A stretch of DNA of 64,000 nt from assembly GCA_000004695.1 (NCBI GenBank), contig CM000152.2, positions 3,680,001 to 3,744,000 on the forward strand. The letters are read 5' to 3'. The stretch comes from Dictyostelium discoideum (lineage: Eukaryota). A model generated the notes under the pieces. That model was not told where the DNA came from. It saw only the letters and a program-made list of their open reading frames with translations, and made no database searches. Position numbers and translations under genes: made by a program. This document shows positions 8,197 through 18,575 of the stretch, piece by piece (within the stretch, counting starts at the first letter, position 1; the number at the start of each line of letters is the position of its first letter).

Positions 8197-9226
8197 TTAA
8201 AATCTACCCATTTGGTAATCAAAGAAAGCTTGTTGAATTTCTTTTTGTGTATTCATAACGAATGGACCATGTTGGACGATTGGTTCACGTAATGGTTTTG
8301 CTGATAAAAAGAGGAATCTTACACCATTTTCACCTGCGACTGCATCTAATTTGTTTGGTGTAATTTCATTATCATTAATTGTAACTCTATCTTTATTCTC
8401 TAAAACACCAATATGTTGATCACCTACAACTTTTTCATAACCTTCTGGACCGAATTTACCTTCACCTTCGAAAACATAAACGAATGAATTATGATCAAAA
8501 TCTGGTACATCCACAGAGAATTTAGTGTTTGGTGATAATGTAACATCTAAAAATATTGGATTAACACGTAAACCTTTAACAATACCTTCAACACCTTCAT
8601 AATGACCTGCAACAACTCTAACTTTTTTATCATTTGTAATAACTTCTGGAATCTCTTCAGCTGGGATATCTTTATACCATGGATCTGACATTTTATCGAC
8701 TGCTGCTAAATTTAACCAAAATTGAAATCCAAACATTTTACCTTCAACTTGTTTTGGCATTTCTGAATGAATAATACTATATATTTAAATTTTAATTTAT
8801 TATTAATACTTTATTTATTTAATTTTATTTTATTTAATTTTATTTTATTTTATTTTATTTTATTTTATTTTATTTTATTTTATTTTTTATTTTTTATTTT
8901 TTAATAATAAAAACATACCCTCTTGCAGCATTCATAACTTGAACCATACCAGGTTTTAGTAATCCTTTATTTCCCTTGTTATCTTTGTGCTCCATTATAC
9001 CATCAATCATATAGGTTAAAGTTTGTTGACCTCTATGTGGATGTGATGGGAAACCTGCAATATAATCATTTGGATTCTCTGATTTGAATGCATCCAACAT
9101 TAAGAATGGATCCACTGATTTTGATGGGATGGGTCCACCAATAACACGTAAAAGTGATACACCTGCACCATCTTTAGTTTTATAACCTTTGGCAACGTTT
9201 GCTACTTTTCTTGAAACACTTGACAT
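8197..9226 (-). CDS. Pirin (cupin superfamily), copy 1; join(9226..8919, 8776..8197), ~295 aa
   Basis: Exon 1 MSSVSRKVANVAKGYKT…FPSHPHRGQQTLTYMIDGIMEHKDNKGNKGLLKPGMVQVMNAARG ends at donor gcaagag|gtatgt (phase 2). 142-nt intron full of (ATTTT)n. Acceptor atatag|tattattcattcagaa gives GIIHSEMPKQVEG…, reproducing the pirin motif G(I/L)xHSEMP. HPHRG and MEHxD are pirin metal-site motifs. C-terminal cupin domain is complete. Confidence 0.85.
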
Positions 9227-9502
9227 TTTATTTATTTGTTTTTTATTTGTTTTTATTTTATTGTATTTGTTTTGTTTTGTTTTTTTTTTTTAAAATGAAT
9301 GAAAAAAATAAAAATAAAAAAATGAGTCTTTATAAAAAATCATTTTCTTATTCAAGAACTCTCTGTGCATTCTGGTATAAAAAATAAAAAAAAAAAAAAA
9401 ATAAAAAATAAAAAAGATATTAAAAAATTAAAATTCCGGAATTTCCATTTAAAAAATTTCCATTTATGGGACCTTTTTTTTTTTTTTAATTTTATATTTC
9501 TG

Positions 9503-9544
<42 letters not shown>

Positions 9545-9810
9545 TAAAAAAATAAAAAAAATAGAAAATAAAATAAAAAAATTAAATTATAAAAAATAAA
9601 AATAAAATTTATTTTTAGAATAATAAAAAAAAAAAGAAAAATAAAAAAAATTTATTTATAGAATAATAATAAAAAAAAAGAAATAAAAAAAATTTGGATC
9701 TATTATAGAAAATCGATTTTTATTTTTTTTTTTTTATTACATCCAATGTATTTTTTAAAACTCATTTTAAAAAATTCAATCAGAAAAAAAAAAAGGTATA
9801 ATTATTTTAG

Positions 9811-9846
9811 TACCAGGTGGGAAATGGTGTCATTGCCTGGTTTTTT
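9811..9846 (+). promoter_or_regulatory. Conserved imperfect inverted-repeat element (ACCAGGT…N20-30…TGCCTGG) in the divergent pirin/secreted-protein promoter, copy 1
   Basis: agtaccaggtgggaaatggtgtcattgcctggtttttt. The same motif is kept at 12834-12876 (copy 2) and, inverted, at 18181-18230 (copy 3) while the surrounding AT-rich sequence has diverged. A second kept motif ATAACCAGG(T/C)AAAAAATAT sits at 10081, 13131 and (inverted) 17925. Confidence 0.4.
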
Positions 9847-10265
9847 ATTTTATTTTTAGGATATTATTTTAAAAAAAAAGTGGGAATCAAAAAAATCTTT
9901 TTTTTTGAGATTTATTTTCTGGTCATTTTTTTTTTTTTTAGCACCGAGGTTTCTTTTACAAAAAAAAAAAAAAAAAAATTATTTAAATCTTTCATTAAAT
10001 TATTAAATTTTCGAGAAAAATTGGATTATTTCTAAATAAATGAGATTCAAATAAATCAATTTTTGCAAGTTCACTTACGTCATAACCAGGTAAAAAAATA
10101 TTTATCATTTTTATATTTTTTACCAATCTATTATTTTTTCGAGTATAATAGGTGTCTCCTTTTAATTTAGTATAAAAAGTTAGGTTTTTTTTTTTTTTTA
10201 CTTCATTAATAATTTACAATTAATAAAAATATATAGTAAAACAAATAATTATTATTAGGATTTAA

Positions 10266-10295
<30 letters not shown>

Positions 10296-10298
<3 letters not shown>

Positions 10299-15300: not shown

Positions 15301-16500
15301 AATAAAAAAGTTAATTTTTCAAAATTTTACCATCCAAAAACACCCCCAATTTACCATCAGCTAGTTGTTCATTTGCTGTTCATTTCATATCACGCAAAAA
15401 AAACAATTTAAAAAACAATAAATAATTTAATTCCCGCTATTTTTTGCGGATTTGCGGAAATGATTTTTTTTAATTTATAAAAAAATTTGATTTTTTTTAT
15501 TTAAGACAGATCTTATCAGATTTATAAAATGAGAAAATATAATAGATATCTACTATTTTTGGCATTAAACAAAGATTTCTGAATATTCAGAAATAGACAG
15601 CGAAACTATCTAATATTGTAAGTGTAACCACGGAGATCGCCACGTGGATTTGCGGCACTTCCTGCTGCTGGTCCCCAGCCATATTGGCCGTTTATTGGAC
15701 GTTGTGAGAGATTTTGGCCTGGTTGTACGATTCCGCCTGATGTCATTTGCTGGGAATAAGAATATATGAGATTTAATTAATAAATATACATGATATGATT
15801 GATAAAAATAGAACAAATTTTAAATTTTTAAAATTGTACACATACATTAAAGTATAATAATATAATTTGTTAAAAATAATTTGAAATGTTTTTTTTGAAA
15901 AAATTTTTTTGTTAATGTTTTATCAACATTTTTTAAATTAAAAAATAAAAAAAATAAAATTAAAAAATAAAAAAAATAAAAAATAAATTTAATTAAATTC
16001 CAACATTTTTTAGGGGGTACCCCTCTTTTTTTTATTTAAATATTAATTTTCATTTTTATTATTATTATTATTATTATTATTAAAATTATTATTTTTTTTA
16101 GGGGGTACCCTCTTTTTTTTTAGGGGGGTACCCCTCTTTTTTTTTTATTTTTTTTATTTTTTTTATTTTTTTTTTTATTTTTTATTTTTCTTTTTTTTTT
16201 TTTTTTTTTTTTTCATTTTTTTTTTTATGTAACGAAGACACAAAAATAAGTTAATATTAAATAAGTGAACTAAGACACTAATTATAGTTGACCCACATTT
16301 AAATAATAATAATAATAATAATAATTCTATTAACTCGAGTTTATAATTATAAATAATATAAATACTAAAAATAATTATATAAACAATAATGAATACCATA
16401 ATTAAAATATAAACCATCAATTTTTTTTTTTTTTTTTTTTTTTTAATTATTTTTTTCAAATATATAGATATTGATCAACAAGCCAACGATACTGAAAGAG

Positions 16501-16686
16501 CTCTAAAACACCGATTTGTTGATCACCAAATAAATTAGATGCAGTCGCAGGTGAAAATGGTGTAAGATTCCTCTTTTTATCAGCAAAACCATTACGTGAA
16601 CCAATCGTCCAACATGGTCCATTCGTTATGAATACACAAAAAGAAATTCAACAAGCTTTCTTTGATTACCAAATGGGTAGATATTA
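16501..16686 (+). pseudogene. Pirin 3' fragment (C-terminal ~53 codons, sense on + strand) fused to a 27-bp pirin piece in opposite orientation; rearrangement breakpoint
   Basis: 16528-16686 encodes KLDAVAGENGVRFLFLSAKPLREPIVQHGPFVMNTQKEIQQAFFDYQMGRY*. 16501-16527 (ctctaaaacaccgatttgttgatcacc) is identical to copy-2 plus-strand 11601-11627, i.e. antisense of GDQQIGVLE, which lies 15 codons upstream in the intact gene. The two pieces join at shared cacc microhomology. Confidence 0.7.
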
Positions 16687-16976
16687 ATTAATTATCGCCT
16701 TATTTATAAAAAAAAAAAATAATAATAAAGATAGAAAAAAATATTGTACTATAATTAATGTAAAGCGGTTATTATTAACCAATCACCAATTAAACAGACA
16801 TTATACTGTTGAATTAGGAAATTATAAAATAAAAATAAAAAATAAAAAATAATATAATTGTATATATATAATTATTAAGAAAGTTTTATTGTTTTATTTT
16901 AGTATAGATTTTTATGTTTAAAAAAAAAAATGGATTGGTGAATCTTTTTTTTTTGATCGAGAAAAAAAAAGATTAA

Positions 16977-17729
16977 TTAAAATGGTAAGTTTCCAAGGAC
17001 TTTTGGTAATTGGACCGATGATGATTTTAATTTTAATTGTTTAGAATTTGGTTGATTTAAACAAATACTTGGTAATTGGAAGTATGAAGAATCTGCAGAT
17101 GGATTGTAATAGTAATAGTTTGTTAATGTATATCCACTTGGTGTATTGTTAATATTTTCAGTTGAACCAGAGATTAATGAACAATCTGATTTATCTACAA
17201 GGAGACCGACATTTGAAGAGTTACCTAAATCACCTGGATTTACTGAAAACATATCACATTGGACTGTACCTAATTCGAAATCACCGACATACTTTAATCC
17301 TTCAAGTGATGGAGCAGAGTATGATAATGGTTGTTGGAAACAATAATCAGTTCCATTTACATTAACACTAACATATTGAGTACTATTACTACCGAATCAC
17401 CAGAGGTTACCTTTTGTTTTAGTATTACCATTATCGAATAAAAAGTCAACATACAATTGTTCTCCAACTAAATCGATATTAATAAAACCAGATTCAAGGA
17501 AAGATGATTGTTGAATACCACTTGGAGTTGGATAATTTCCATTAAAACTTAACATTACATATGAACTTGAATAACTTGTTGGAAGTTGGCCACTTGAAGT
17601 AAAACATTGTTGTTGGCCTAATTGATTTTCAATCTTTGAGTAATCAATTTTATTTGTACCCATACTAAATGATTTACAACAATTTAATGCAATTGTCATT
17701 ACTAAAATTAAAGATAATAATAATTTCAT
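16977..17729 (-). pseudogene. Inverted third copy of the secreted Cys/N-glycosite-rich protein gene, with premature stop and frameshift
   Basis: Split into ORFs 17397..17729 and 16977..17252. TGGGGA→TGGTGA (W-G → W-stop) at the codon after …KGNLW, plus a frame change. Flanks 16690-16976 and 17730-18250 are reverse complements of the copy-1/2 intergenic and promoter regions. Confidence 0.7.
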
Positions 17730-18180
17730 TTTTTTTTTTTTTTTTTTTTTTTTGTTTATTTTTTTTTTTTTTAATTTTATTTGTTTTATTTATTTATTAA
17801 TTATTAACGAAATAAAAAAAAAAAAAACTATTTATACTAATTTTTTTTATAATTATCCGACTGCATTTTAAAAAATAAATCAAAAATATTAACCAAAAAA
17901 TTATCCTGTAAAATATATTTTTTGCCTGGTTATGATGCCAAGTGAACTTGCAAAAATTGGTTTATTTGAATCTTCACATTTATTTTCAAAATATCCGATT
18001 CCATTTTTTCGAAATTTTAAATAAAAAATTGGGAAGTAATTTTTTTTTTTTAATATAGGAATATTTTGGCGTAAAAAAAATTAAAAAAAGAATGTCAGAG
18101 AATCTATCTCAAAAAAATGATTTTTTATTTGGATATTTTTTAAAAAATAATATCACAAAATATTTCATAAAAAAAAAAAA

Positions 18181-18230
18181 AAACCAGGCAGTGATGTCAT
18201 AATCTCAATAAAAAACTGTTGGCCTGGTAC
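18181..18230 (-). promoter_or_regulatory. Conserved CCAGG inverted-repeat promoter element, copy 3 (inverted)
   Basis: aaaccaggcagtgatgtcataatctcaataaaaaactgttggcctggtactt = revcomp of the copy-1/2 motif. Confidence 0.35.
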
Positions 18231-18575
18231 TTAATTTTATTTTATTCAATTTCATTTTATTCAATTTTATTTTTAATAATAAAAAAAAAAAAATAAAAAA
18301 AATAAAAAAATAAAAAAAGAACTTCAAATGAATATTATTTATATGTTAAAAAAAATAAAAAAAATATTATTTTCCTTTTTTCTTTTTTTTTTTTTTATTA
18401 TGATTTAATTTTATTTATTTTTATATGAATTTGGTTTTTAAAAATAGAAAAAAAATCCTCCAAAAGGAATTTTTATTTAAATTGATAGTAAGAAATGATT
18501 AATTCCTCATACATTTTATTGGAAAAAAAAAAATACAAAATTACAAAAAAACTTATTTAAATCAACAAAATAAGC

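What the first reader, a model, noticed from the sequence alone, without database searches (positions are those of the whole stretch)
8197..18250. Segmental amplification of a divergent pirin + secreted-protein cassette: two direct copies plus an inverted, decayed third copy
A ~3.0-3.2 kb unit occurs twice in tandem (8197-11400 and 11400-14230, >95% identical): a 2-exon pirin gene on the minus strand and a 250-aa signal-peptide, Cys/N-glycosite-rich protein gene on the plus strand, sharing a ~1.07 kb promoter. A third copy occurs inverted and truncated (16501-18250) on the far side of a repeat element. The copies differ by single-base lesions: a 1-bp deletion in pirin copy 2 exon 1; a 1-bp deletion changing the C-terminus of secreted-protein copy 2; a TGG-GGA to TGG-TGA nonsense change plus a frameshift in copy 3. 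This is a young, actively decaying gene-family expansion. Pirin is an Fe-cupin redox-sensing transcriptional co-regulator / quercetinase; its stable divergent pairing with a secreted protein suggests co-regulation.
Basis: seen in the sequence. Interest (0 to 1): 0.7.

Follow-up and report, generated by a model that had tools for sequence, protein, structure and literature searches.

The report
Polymorphic pirin/ependymin-like gene-pair array, Dictyostelium
This is a real but ordinary amplified gene pair (a pirin enzyme gene head-to-head with a secreted ependymin-like protein gene) on Dictyostelium discoideum chromosome 3; the copies are kept similar by gene conversion and differ in number between strains, rather than simply decaying.

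Summary
The duplication is real. The window is D. discoideum AX4 chromosome 3. It carries pirin Q54UY3 and ependymin-like DDB_G0280727, DDB_G0280733 and DDB_G0280737.

Layout:
- Two direct units lie at 8136-11337 and 11338-14256.
- An inverted partial unit lies at 16524-18258.

What holds up:
- Genes are 98-99% identical between the direct units. The whole unit is only about 89%, and the "shared promoter" about 72%.
- Both 1-bp deletions (pirin copy 2, ependymin-like copy 2) are real and also occur in an independent long-read assembly.

What does not:
- The copy-3 TGA is absent from that second assembly.
- Copy 3 has no frameshift.

What I add:
- The secreted protein belongs to Pfam Ependymin_amoebozoa.
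- The divergent pair also exists in D. citrinum, but not next to the orthologous pirin in D. firmibasis or D. dimigraforme.
- Wild D. discoideum strains carry a full-length inverted pirin.
- The AX4 "truncated copy" results from a 3.3-kb deletion with microhomologies and a 27-nt inverted templated insert.
- The spacer is a remnant of the ancestral neighbour gene, interrupted by repeats.
- Copies group by strain and show low dN/dS, which indicates concerted evolution under purifying selection.
- A second array lies about 390 kb away.
- By gene numbering, the locus sits just past a boundary marker of the published tgrBC hypervariable region.

Verdict: a known kind of feature, of moderate to low interest.

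The parts
8136..11337 (.). Repeat unit 1 (pirin copy 1, divergent intergenic region, ependymin-like copy 1, and the inter-unit junction 11246-11337)
   Evidence: Self-BLAST.
8197..9226 (-). Pirin copy 1, intact. Exon 1 9226-8919, intron 8918-8777 (GTATGT..TATAG), exon 2 8776-8197. It encodes 295 aa and equals D. discoideum AX4 EAL67164.1 / Q54UY3.
   Evidence: Searches give the gene model. One search gives the Pfam Pirin and Pirin_C matches. One search gives the exact protein match. One search shows human pirin at E about 1e-52 with the HPH...HSE metal ligands aligned.
9227..10295 (.). Divergent intergenic region of copy 1 (1069 bp). Only about 200 bp next to the pirin ATG and about 110 bp next to the ependymin-like ATG align with copy 2.
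10296..11048 (+). Ependymin-like secreted protein copy 1 (250 aa) = DDB_G0280727 / Q54UY2
   Evidence: PF25544 Ependymin_amoebozoa, E = 1.9e-59; exact match. Cys and N-x-S/T positions.
11338..14256 (.). Repeat unit 2. It ends about 92 bp short of unit 1.
11400..12400 (-). Pirin copy 2, a pseudogene. A 1-bp deletion creates TAA at 12172-12170 after codon 76. The splice sites are intact. Exon 1 12400-12094, intron 12093-11980, exon 2 11979-11400.
   Evidence: One search shows the same lesion in the second assembly (no difference listed at this site).
13324..14079 (+). Ependymin-like copy 2 (251 aa) = DDB_G0280733 / Q54UX9. A 1-bp deletion between 14054 and 14055 changes the C-terminus from ...KVLGNLPF to ...KVLETYHFN.
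   Evidence: One search shows the same lesion in the second assembly.
14372..14643 (+). Remnant (part 1) of the ancestral neighbour gene, a roughly 1060-aa gene with a weak AAA_23 Pfam hit. It is 87-89% identical to D. citrinum L006 5072-5425.
   Evidence: blastn and tblastx. One search gives the gene content of L006.
14642..15263 (.). Interspersed repeat inserted into that remnant. 14642-14824 matches 60543-60726 (92%) and 15159-15263 matches 60753-60649 (100%, inverted). The arms 14742-14951 and 15263-15078 are inverted copies of each other.
16459..16502 (+). Remnant (part 2) of the same ancestral neighbour gene. It is 97.7% identical to wild-strain L008 7515-7558 and 86% identical to D. citrinum L006 6608-6651.
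16501..16527 (+). 27-nt inverted templated insertion at the deletion junction. It is the antisense of pirin GGTGATCAACAAATCGGTGTTTTAGAG and is 100% identical to 11601-11627. It shares CT (16501-16502) with the left flank and CACC (16524-16527) with the right flank.
16524..16687 (+). Pirin 3' fragment: the last 54 codons plus the stop, in sense orientation on the plus strand
16524..18258 (.). Inverted partial unit (copy 3): pirin 3' fragment, inter-unit junction, ependymin-like gene, and about 520 bp of its upstream region
16977..17729 (-). Ependymin-like copy 3 = DDB_G0280737. In this sequence codon 111 is TGA (changed base at 17399). It is GGA in the second assembly. There is no frameshift. 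The AX4 226-aa gene model splices the stop out.

Best explanation
The region is the pirin/DDB_G0280727-DDB_G0280737 locus of Dictyostelium discoideum AX4 chromosome 3. It is a structurally polymorphic array of one two-gene cassette. The cassette is a bicupin pirin gene placed head-to-head with a gene for a secreted ependymin-related protein (LolA-like fold superfamily).

Shown:
- The head-to-head pair is older than D. discoideum, because it is present at the syntenic site in D. citrinum.
- In D. discoideum the cassette forms a left arm of direct copies and a right arm in inverted orientation. The arms flank the remnant of the ancestral neighbour gene.
- The same cassette family forms a second array about 390 kb away.
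- In the window sequence and in a second, 99.5%-identical assembly, copy 2 carries two 1-bp deletions.
- In those same two assemblies the right arm has lost 3.3 kb (one ependymin-like gene and the 5' three-quarters of pirin). The junction has 2-nt and 4-nt microhomologies and a 27-nt inverted insert copied from pirin sequence 37 nt away.

Inferred:
- Tandem copies arise and are lost by unequal or non-allelic homologous recombination.
- Copies within a genome are homogenised by gene conversion, including between the inverted arms. This would explain why they group by strain while staying under purifying selection.
- The deletion arose by microhomology-mediated end joining or a replicative template switch.
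- The lesions arose recently in the NC4-derived lab lineage.

Overall the family is maintained, not decaying.
For: Identity of the locus: exact protein matches to AX4 entries.

Family assignment: Pfam Pirin, Pirin_C and Ependymin_amoebozoa. Human pirin aligns at E about 1e-52 with the metal ligands conserved.

Repeat structure.

Independent assembly: GCA_054883475.1 is collinear and 99.5% identical. It has both 1-bp deletions and the same junction, but GGA instead of TGA at 17399. The published AX4-versus-AX2 identity in the neighbouring tgrBC locus is also 99.5% (PMC12745789).

Wild strains:
- L008 reads E(+) P(-) | remnant | E(-) P(+) E(-).
- L009 reads P(-) E(+) E(+) P(-) | remnant | E(-) P(+) E(-).
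- Both have the same flanking genes as the window.

Spacer: it matches the D. citrinum neighbour gene, in the same order and orientation.

Junction: resolved to the base.

Age of the pair: it is present in two D. citrinum strains.

Second array: L007 lies 387.7 kb away on the same chromosome record.

Selection and homogenisation:
- Ependymin-like dN/dS is 0.04-0.20 and pirin dN/dS is 0.02-0.09.
- dS between P1 and P2 is 0.045, lower than dS between AX4 and wild copies (0.07-0.12).
- NJ trees group copies by strain.
- Four sites are fixed in all AX copies and absent from all wild copies. No site supports positional orthology.
- The two lab-type assemblies differ at paralogous sites of the inverted ependymin-like copies: 13791 and 17262 are swapped, and 17399 and 17556 match copy 2.
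Against: - Grouping by strain could also come from independent rounds of duplication and loss in each lineage rather than gene conversion. The trees have no bootstrap support and rest on 44 variable sites.
- Only three D. discoideum haplotypes were compared. L008 is cut on its left side.
- The differences at paralogous sites between the two lab-type assemblies could be read mis-assignment or polishing artefacts in either one.
- Which structure is ancestral (full right arm, or the truncated arm seen here) is inferred from two wild strains and D. citrinum, not from a rooted analysis.
- That the second assembly is AX2-214 is inferred from its 99.5% identity, not read from its record.
- The proximity to the tgrBC locus rests on gene-ID order (DDB_G0280717 versus DDB_G0280727), not on coordinates I could read.
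- No expression data were available. The function and co-regulation of the pair are untested.
Confidence: 0.72

Rival explanations
1. This is a young gene-family expansion now decaying by neutral pseudogenisation. Copy 3 arose as an inverted, truncated duplicate and is accumulating lesions.
For: Three of the five gene copies in the window sequence carry a lesion: pirin 2, ependymin-like 2 and ependymin-like 3. dN/dS between P1 and P2 (0.19) is higher than among intact pirins.
Against: dN/dS is low overall. Wild strains have all copies intact and carry a full-length inverted pirin. The truncation is a deletion with a templated insert relative to those strains. The copy-3 stop is absent from the second assembly and the claimed frameshift does not exist. 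The ependymin-like copy 2 lesion alters only the last 6 residues.
Confidence: 0.15
2. Independent, recurrent duplication and loss by unequal crossing-over in each strain, without gene conversion, explains why copies group by strain.
For: Copy number and order differ between the window sequence, L008 and L009. Tandem arrays are prone to unequal crossing-over.
Against: All three haplotypes share the same overall architecture: a left direct arm, the remnant of the neighbour gene, a right inverted arm, and the same flanks. Copies in opposite orientation on the two arms still group by strain, which unequal crossing-over between direct repeats cannot produce. Polymorphisms are shared among paralogs in a mosaic pattern.
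Confidence: 0.1
3. Assembly artefact. The duplication, or the lesions, come from mis-assembly or sequencing error in the reference.
For: The reference TGA at 17399 and three other paralogous-site calls are not reproduced in the second assembly. All 14 pure homopolymer-length differences go in the same direction.
Against: An independent chromosome-scale assembly reproduces the three-copy structure, the spacer, the junction and both 1-bp deletions. Neither deletion lies in a homopolymer run: the contexts are GGT(A)TAA and AGT(T/C)CTT. Two wild-strain assemblies show the same family at the same locus.
Confidence: 0.03

Closest known systems
Pirin family bicupins (human PIR, PDB 1J1L; bacterial YhhW/YhaK-type pirins annotated as quercetin 2,3-dioxygenase)
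   Same: It has both Pfam domains above their thresholds. It aligns end to end with human pirin (E about 1e-52). The HxH...HxE metal ligands are conserved (HPH at residues 62-64, H106/E108). It is 50-54% identical to many bacterial pirins.
   Different: No activity or partner is known for the Dictyostelium protein. It exists as a multi-copy, strain-variable array paired with a secreted protein gene. I know of no such arrangement for other pirins (from my own knowledge, not tested).
Ependymin-related proteins (EPDR1; sponge EPD-BCP1, PDB 8I34; Pfam PF25544 Ependymin_amoebozoa)
   Same: It has a strong Pfam match (1.9e-59), an N-terminal signal-like segment, four invariant cysteines and N-glycosylation sequons. 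The weak structural model hits VioE, EPD-BCP1, LolA and MucB, which are all LolA-like folds. EPDRs were already reported in dictyostelids (PMC6280359).
   Different: It has no detectable sequence similarity to any solved structure. The model confidence is low (pLDDT 50). It evolves much faster than its pirin partner: dN between D. discoideum and D. citrinum is about 0.10, against 0.009 for pirin.
Concertedly evolving tandem and inverted gene arrays, and the neighbouring D. discoideum tgrBC hypervariable locus (Holland et al. 2025, PMC12745789)
   Same: It shows strain-specific copy number, inversions, partial copies, and intralocus recombination or conversion. By gene numbering it sits just beyond the DDB_G0280717 marker that bounds the published 104-kb tgrBC locus.
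   Different: The window contains no tgr genes. The paper does not mention pirin or ependymin. The copies here are under purifying selection and homogenised, not diversified.
Deletions with templated insertions from alternative end joining or replicative template switching (MMEJ, FoSTeS/MMBIR-type junctions)
   Same: It has 2-nt and 4-nt microhomologies and a 27-nt inverted insert copied from sequence 37 nt from the breakpoint.
   Different: The mechanism is inferred from the junction sequence alone. No enzyme dependence is known here.

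Membership tests
Pirin (bicupin) family | N-terminal Pirin cupin domain (PF02678) above the Pfam threshold | tested here: met
   110.1 bits against a cutoff of 26.1, E = 7e-32, residues 33-124.
Pirin (bicupin) family | C-terminal Pirin_C cupin domain (PF05726) | tested here: met
   78.8 bits against a cutoff of 27, residues 179-295.
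Pirin (bicupin) family | Metal-binding residues (three His and one Glu) in the N-terminal cupin | tested here: met
   in the alignment to human pirin, HPHRG aligns with HPHRG and GIIHSE aligns with GILHAE.
Pirin (bicupin) family | Quercetinase or redox-dependent co-regulator activity | not testable with these tools
   This needs an enzyme assay or an interaction assay.
Ependymin-related proteins (EPDR) | Ependymin-domain profile match | tested here: met
   PF25544 at 200.9 bits against a cutoff of 27, covering profile positions 1-171 of 171.
Ependymin-related proteins (EPDR) | Secretory signal and conserved cysteines | tested here: met
   The N-terminus MKLLLSLILVMTIALNCC is hydrophobic. This was judged by inspection; no signal-peptide predictor was run. 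C42, C130, C183 and C223 are invariant in 21 homologues.
Ependymin-related proteins (EPDR) | LolA-like beta-sheet fold with a hydrophobic pocket | tested here: inconclusive
   The AF2 model has a mean pLDDT of 50. The top Foldseek hits are VioE, EPD-BCP1 (8I34), LolA and MucB, but TM-scores are only 0.34-0.47.
Segmental duplication array with concerted evolution | Repeated multi-kb units far beyond chance, reproduced in an independent assembly | tested here: met
Segmental duplication array with concerted evolution | Paralogs within a genome are more alike than positional orthologs between genomes | tested here: met
   Copies group by strain. Four fixed AX-specific sites stand against zero positional sites. 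dS between P1 and P2 is 0.045, against 0.07-0.12 between strains. There is no bootstrap support and only three haplotypes were compared.
tgrBC hypermutable locus (PMC12745789) | [quoted passage not shown] | tested here: inconclusive
   Gene IDs 0280727-0280737 place it just outside the DDB_G0280717 marker, which is an inference from ID order. Ten large ORFs of the window show no tgr-like domains.
Microhomology-mediated deletion with templated insertion | Microhomology at both joints and an insert traceable to a nearby template | tested here: met
   CT and CACC microhomologies. The 27-nt insert is 100% identical to the antisense of pirin copy 2 at 11601-11627.

The most novel reading that the evidence does not exclude
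The pirin and ependymin-like genes could form a functional two-gene module: an intracellular dioxygenase or redox protein plus a secreted protein that binds hydrophobic ligands. Its copy number would be under selection, and its amplification and turnover would be driven by the same local instability that diversifies the adjacent tgrBC allorecognition locus. That would extend the published hotspot beyond its boundary marker and link it to a non-tgr cargo, possibly one relevant to handling bacterial prey or small molecules.
Probability: 0.12. Interest if true: 0.6.

Novelty: new member of a known kind. Interest (0 to 1): 0.3.

Why it matters
The genes themselves are already annotated in the AX4 genome, and the general phenomenon is textbook: tandem and inverted duplicates with gene conversion and occasional pseudogenes. 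Three modest points of value remain.

1. Annotation. The 226-aa model for DDB_G0280737 hides an in-frame stop behind an invented intron, and that stop is not reproduced in a second assembly. Pirin copy 2 is a pseudogene in both lab-type assemblies.
2. Hotspot extent. The array shows that structural turnover continues just outside the marker used to delimit the tgrBC hypervariable locus.
3. Possible functional link. A pirin and an ependymin-like secreted protein have been amplified together at two loci or more. This is a testable hint of a functional link between two protein families whose cellular roles are poorly understood.

Tried and rejected
- tRNA scan of the whole window found nothing. 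The spacer repeat is therefore not obviously a tRNA-targeted TRE insertion.
- Rfam at gathering threshold over the whole window found nothing. At E <= 1 on the spacer it gave only a chance-level hairpin hit, mir-3047, 23.7 bits against a threshold of 53. The GC-rich patch at 15600-15760 stays unexplained.
- Looking up the AX4 pirin paralog P0026 in the contig index returned nothing.
- Full-text search for DDB_G0280725, 727, 733, 737 and DDB_G0281115, 117 found no paper. The 'Dictyostelium + pirin' hits were an author name and one microarray table row for an unidentified pirin-like gene.
- Sequence search of the ependymin-like protein against the PDB found nothing.
- The AF2 model was poor, so the fold search is only weak support.
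- I considered an inversion of the spacer by recombination between ependymin-like copies 2 and 3, to explain the swap at 13791/17262 between the two assemblies. I rejected it because the two assemblies are collinear across the spacer.
- I considered that the pair might be a universal dictyostelid synteny. I rejected it because there is no ependymin-like gene or remnant beside the orthologous pirin in D. firmibasis or D. dimigraforme.

Full report
**1. What the sequence is**

The window has about 20% G+C with long poly-T and (AAT)n tracts. The proteins encoded in the flagged region are exact matches to Dictyostelium discoideum AX4 entries on the 6.36-Mb chromosome 3 record:
- The spliced pirin of copy 1 equals EAL67164.1 / Q54UY3.
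- The 250-aa ORF at 10296-11048 equals DDB_G0280727.
- The 251-aa ORF at 13324-14079 equals DDB_G0280733.
- The third copy corresponds to DDB_G0280737.

The feature therefore lies in an annotated model-organism genome.

**2. Checking the observation**

A gapped self-comparison shows the following matches:
- Two direct units, 8136-9427 = 11338-12596 and 10186-11245 = 13235-14256, at 93-94% identity including gaps.
- An inverted copy, 16819-18258 = 14231-12803.
- 16524-16852 = 11563-11233, which is the junction between units 1 and 2 together with the 3' end of pirin.

Pirin is a two-exon minus-strand gene. Its GTATGT...TATAG intron (8918-8777) restores the conserved ...AARG|IIHSEMP... motif. It matches Pfam Pirin and Pirin_C.

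So is the TGG-TGA change in copy 3.

Three details do not hold:
- The >95% identity applies only to the genes (98-99%). The whole unit is 89.5% identical in ungapped columns. The ATG-to-ATG 'shared promoter' is 72% identical, and its centre does not align.
- Copy 3 has no frameshift. It is 753 nt in one frame.
- The intervening 'repeat element' is something else (section 5).

**3. An independent assembly settles the 're-sequence' question**

The copy-1 ependymin-like protein is also encoded on GCA_054883475.1, a 6.43-Mb chromosome record (L001). That locus is collinear with window 236-19070 at 99.5% identity.

A base-by-base comparison lists 8 substitutions. Nearly all the other differences are homopolymer-length changes. 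Neither 1-bp deletion is among the differences, so both lesions are reproduced. Neither lies in a homopolymer run.

By contrast, 17399 is C in L001. That gives GGA, so copy 3 is an intact 250-aa gene there. Three further differences fall on sites that distinguish the paralogs:
- 13791 and 17262 are the same codon position in copies 2 and 3, with the two states swapped.
- 17556 matches copy 2 in L001.

The assemblies come from PRJNA1300491 (PMC12745789). That study sequenced the AX2-214 lab strain and wild isolates with Nanopore plus Illumina, and it reports 99.5% AX4/AX2 identity in the neighbouring tgrBC locus. I infer that L001 is AX2-214, but I did not confirm this from the record.

The AX4 226-aa model of DDB_G0280737 reads ...DLVGEQ|FTQYV.... 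In other words, it removes the stop-containing segment as an 'intron'.

**4. What the secreted protein is**

It matches Pfam PF25544, 'Ependymin domain, amoebozoa', over the full profile (E = 1.9e-59). All 25 homologues found are Dictyostelium proteins with the same domain. Four cysteines are invariant across 21 of them. The protein has four N-x-S/T sequons.

It has no sequence match in the PDB. An AlphaFold model built from the shallow alignment is poor, with pLDDT 50. Even so, its best Foldseek matches are VioE, the sponge ependymin-related carotenoprotein 8I34, LolA and MucB, which are all LolA-like folds. I treat this as weak corroboration. Ependymin-related proteins in dictyostelids have been reported before (PMC6280359).

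**5. Comparative anatomy of the locus**

In two D. citrinum strains the syntenic site reads MFS_1, a 476-aa gene, a roughly 1060-aa gene with a weak AAA_23 hit, ependymin-like(-), pirin(+), then three further genes. One strain has two ependymin-like copies. The divergent pair is therefore older than D. discoideum.

Next to the orthologous pirin of D. firmibasis and D. dimigraforme there is no ependymin-like gene or remnant.

Two wild D. discoideum strains carry the same locus with the same flanks. Actin and zf-MIZ lie on the left. The 682-aa and 476-aa genes and MFS_1 lie on the right. In window orientation:
- L009 reads P(-) E(+) E(+) P(-) | remnant | E(-) P(+) E(-).
- L008, which is cut on the left, reads ...E(+) P(-) | remnant | E(-) P(+) E(-).

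Both have a full-length inverted pirin.

The spacer in the window contains two pieces of the D. citrinum neighbour gene, in the same order and orientation: 14372-14643 and 16459-16502. An interspersed repeat interrupts them at 14642/14643. A second copy of that repeat lies at 60543-60753.

**6. The truncation is a deletion with a readable junction**

Every match of copy 3 to any other pirin stops at 16524. At base resolution the junction has three parts:
- The neighbour-gene remnant runs to 16502.
- Positions 16501-16527 are the antisense of pirin GGTGATCAACAAATCGGTGTTTTAGAG. They are 100% identical to 11601-11627 on the same strand.
- The sense pirin 3' fragment starts at 16524.

The overlaps are CT and CACC. 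In an intact pirin the template lies 37 nt upstream of the right breakpoint.

Relative to L008 this is a 3,278-bp deletion (L008 7559-10836). It removed one ependymin-like gene and the first 241 codons of pirin. A microhomology-flanked, locally templated inverted insert is the classic signature of alternative end joining or a replicative template switch. That mechanism is inferred. The identical junction is present in L001.

**7. Selection and homogenisation**

| Comparison | dN/dS | dS or dN |
|---|---|---|
| Ependymin-like copies within D. discoideum | 0.04-0.20 | |
| Ependymin-like, D. discoideum vs D. citrinum | 0.28-0.37 | dN about 0.10 |
| Pirin, intact copies | 0.02-0.09 | |
| Pirin P1 vs pseudogene P2 | 0.19 | dS 0.045 |
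| Pirin, AX4 vs wild copies | | dS 0.07-0.12 |
| Pirin, this locus vs the second array | | dS 0.16 |
| Pirin, D. discoideum vs D. citrinum | | dS 0.25-0.30 |

These values come from Nei-Gojobori estimates.

In neighbour-joining trees the copies group by strain for both genes, including copies on oppositely oriented arms. At the 44 variable ependymin-like sites, four are fixed in all AX copies and absent from all wild copies. None supports positional orthology. Several sites show mosaic sharing.

The architecture is shared between strains, so I read this as concerted evolution through gene conversion and unequal exchange. The paralogous-site differences between the two lab-type assemblies may be a recent example, or may be artefacts. 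The trees have no bootstrap support and only three haplotypes were compared.

**8. Wider family and context**

The same 90%-identity clusters contain further chromosome-3 members:
- Ependymin-like: DDB_G0280201, DDB_G0281117, DDB_G0281121, DDB_G0281131, DDB_G0281135 and DDB_G0281635.
- Pirin: Q54UE9.

In L007, 387.7 kb from L001 on the same record, there is a second array of alternating pirin and ependymin-like genes. It includes partial pirins and fragments of a beta-eliminating lyase gene. The syntenic D. citrinum site holds a single ependymin-like gene and no pirin.

The rest of the window encodes ordinary genes: an aminotransferase, a kelch/RING protein, an M20 peptidase, a thioredoxin-domain protein, a RuvB-like TIP49 and a bromodomain protein. 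It has no tgr genes.

PMC12745789 defines a 104-kb hypermutable tgrBC locus bounded by wacA, chdB and DDB_G0280717. It does not mention pirin or ependymin. By gene-ID order the array lies a few genes beyond that marker. This is an inference, because I could not read the coordinates.

**9. Verdict**

The interpretation needs revision. This is a maintained, concertedly evolving, strain-polymorphic array of an older two-gene cassette, with a few recent lesions seen only in the lab-type assemblies and one deletion whose mechanism can be read from its junction. It is a new example of a well-known kind of genome feature in an already annotated genome.

Its interest is moderate to low. The most useful outcomes are annotation corrections, evidence that structural turnover continues just past the published tgrBC boundary, and a testable hint that pirin and an ependymin-like secreted protein are functionally linked.

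Noticed in passing
window 14642-15263 and 60543-60753: A short interspersed repeat of about 210 bp in its compact copy, with an internal hairpin at 14684-14737 (GTGAATTTTTACACTA...TAGTGTAAAAATTCAC). In the spacer it appears as two inverted arms around a poly-T/poly-A core. It looks MITE-like. No tRNA gene is nearby and it has no Rfam family.
   Followed up: partly
window 15600-15760: An isolated patch of roughly 50% G+C in a 20% G+C genome, inside the spacer. It has no Rfam hit, no convincing ORF, and no match in the wild-strain or sister-species loci. It is present in both lab-type assemblies. Its origin is unknown.
   Followed up: partly
window 16007-16140: Three copies of a G+C-rich palindrome, TTTTTAGGGGGTACCCC(T)CTTTTTT, embedded in poly-T. 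An exact or 1-mismatch match is expected 0.00 times by chance.
   Followed up: partly
window 236-19070 vs L001: All 14 pure homopolymer-length differences between the two assemblies go the same way, with the window longer. This suggests systematic homopolymer compression in the Nanopore-based assembly or expansion in the reference. Three substitutions cluster at 9446, 9461 and 9473 in the copy-1 intergenic region.
   Followed up: no
L007 10001-20718 (GCA_054883475.1 CM142509.1 4142542-4163517): A second, larger array of pirin and ependymin-like genes. It includes two partial pirins (210 and 141 aa models) and fragments of a beta-eliminating lyase gene amplified with them. In D. dimigraforme an intact lyase gene of that family sits directly upstream of the orthologous pirin.
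   Followed up: partly
window 16977-17729 (DDB_G0280737) and L001 11105-12105: Gene models paper over lesions. The AX4 226-aa model removes the TGA-containing segment as an intron. The second assembly annotates the frameshifted pirin copy 2 as a 283-aa protein.
   Followed up: yes
window 4122-8136 vs L002, L004, L005, L006: There is a synteny break at the array. In D. citrinum, D. dimigraforme and D. firmibasis the pirin is followed by further genes that include (except in D. firmibasis) a 746-760-aa gene and a cytochrome-b5 gene, and in all three a gene of about 2300 aa. In D. discoideum it abuts zf-MIZ and an actin gene whose product is identical to the major actin.
   Followed up: partly
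L005 7287-7743: D. citrinum strain U has a degenerate pirin fragment between its two ependymin-like copies (exon 1 about 58% identical, plus 33 codons of exon 2). The cassette has therefore also been duplicated and partly lost in that species.
   Followed up: no
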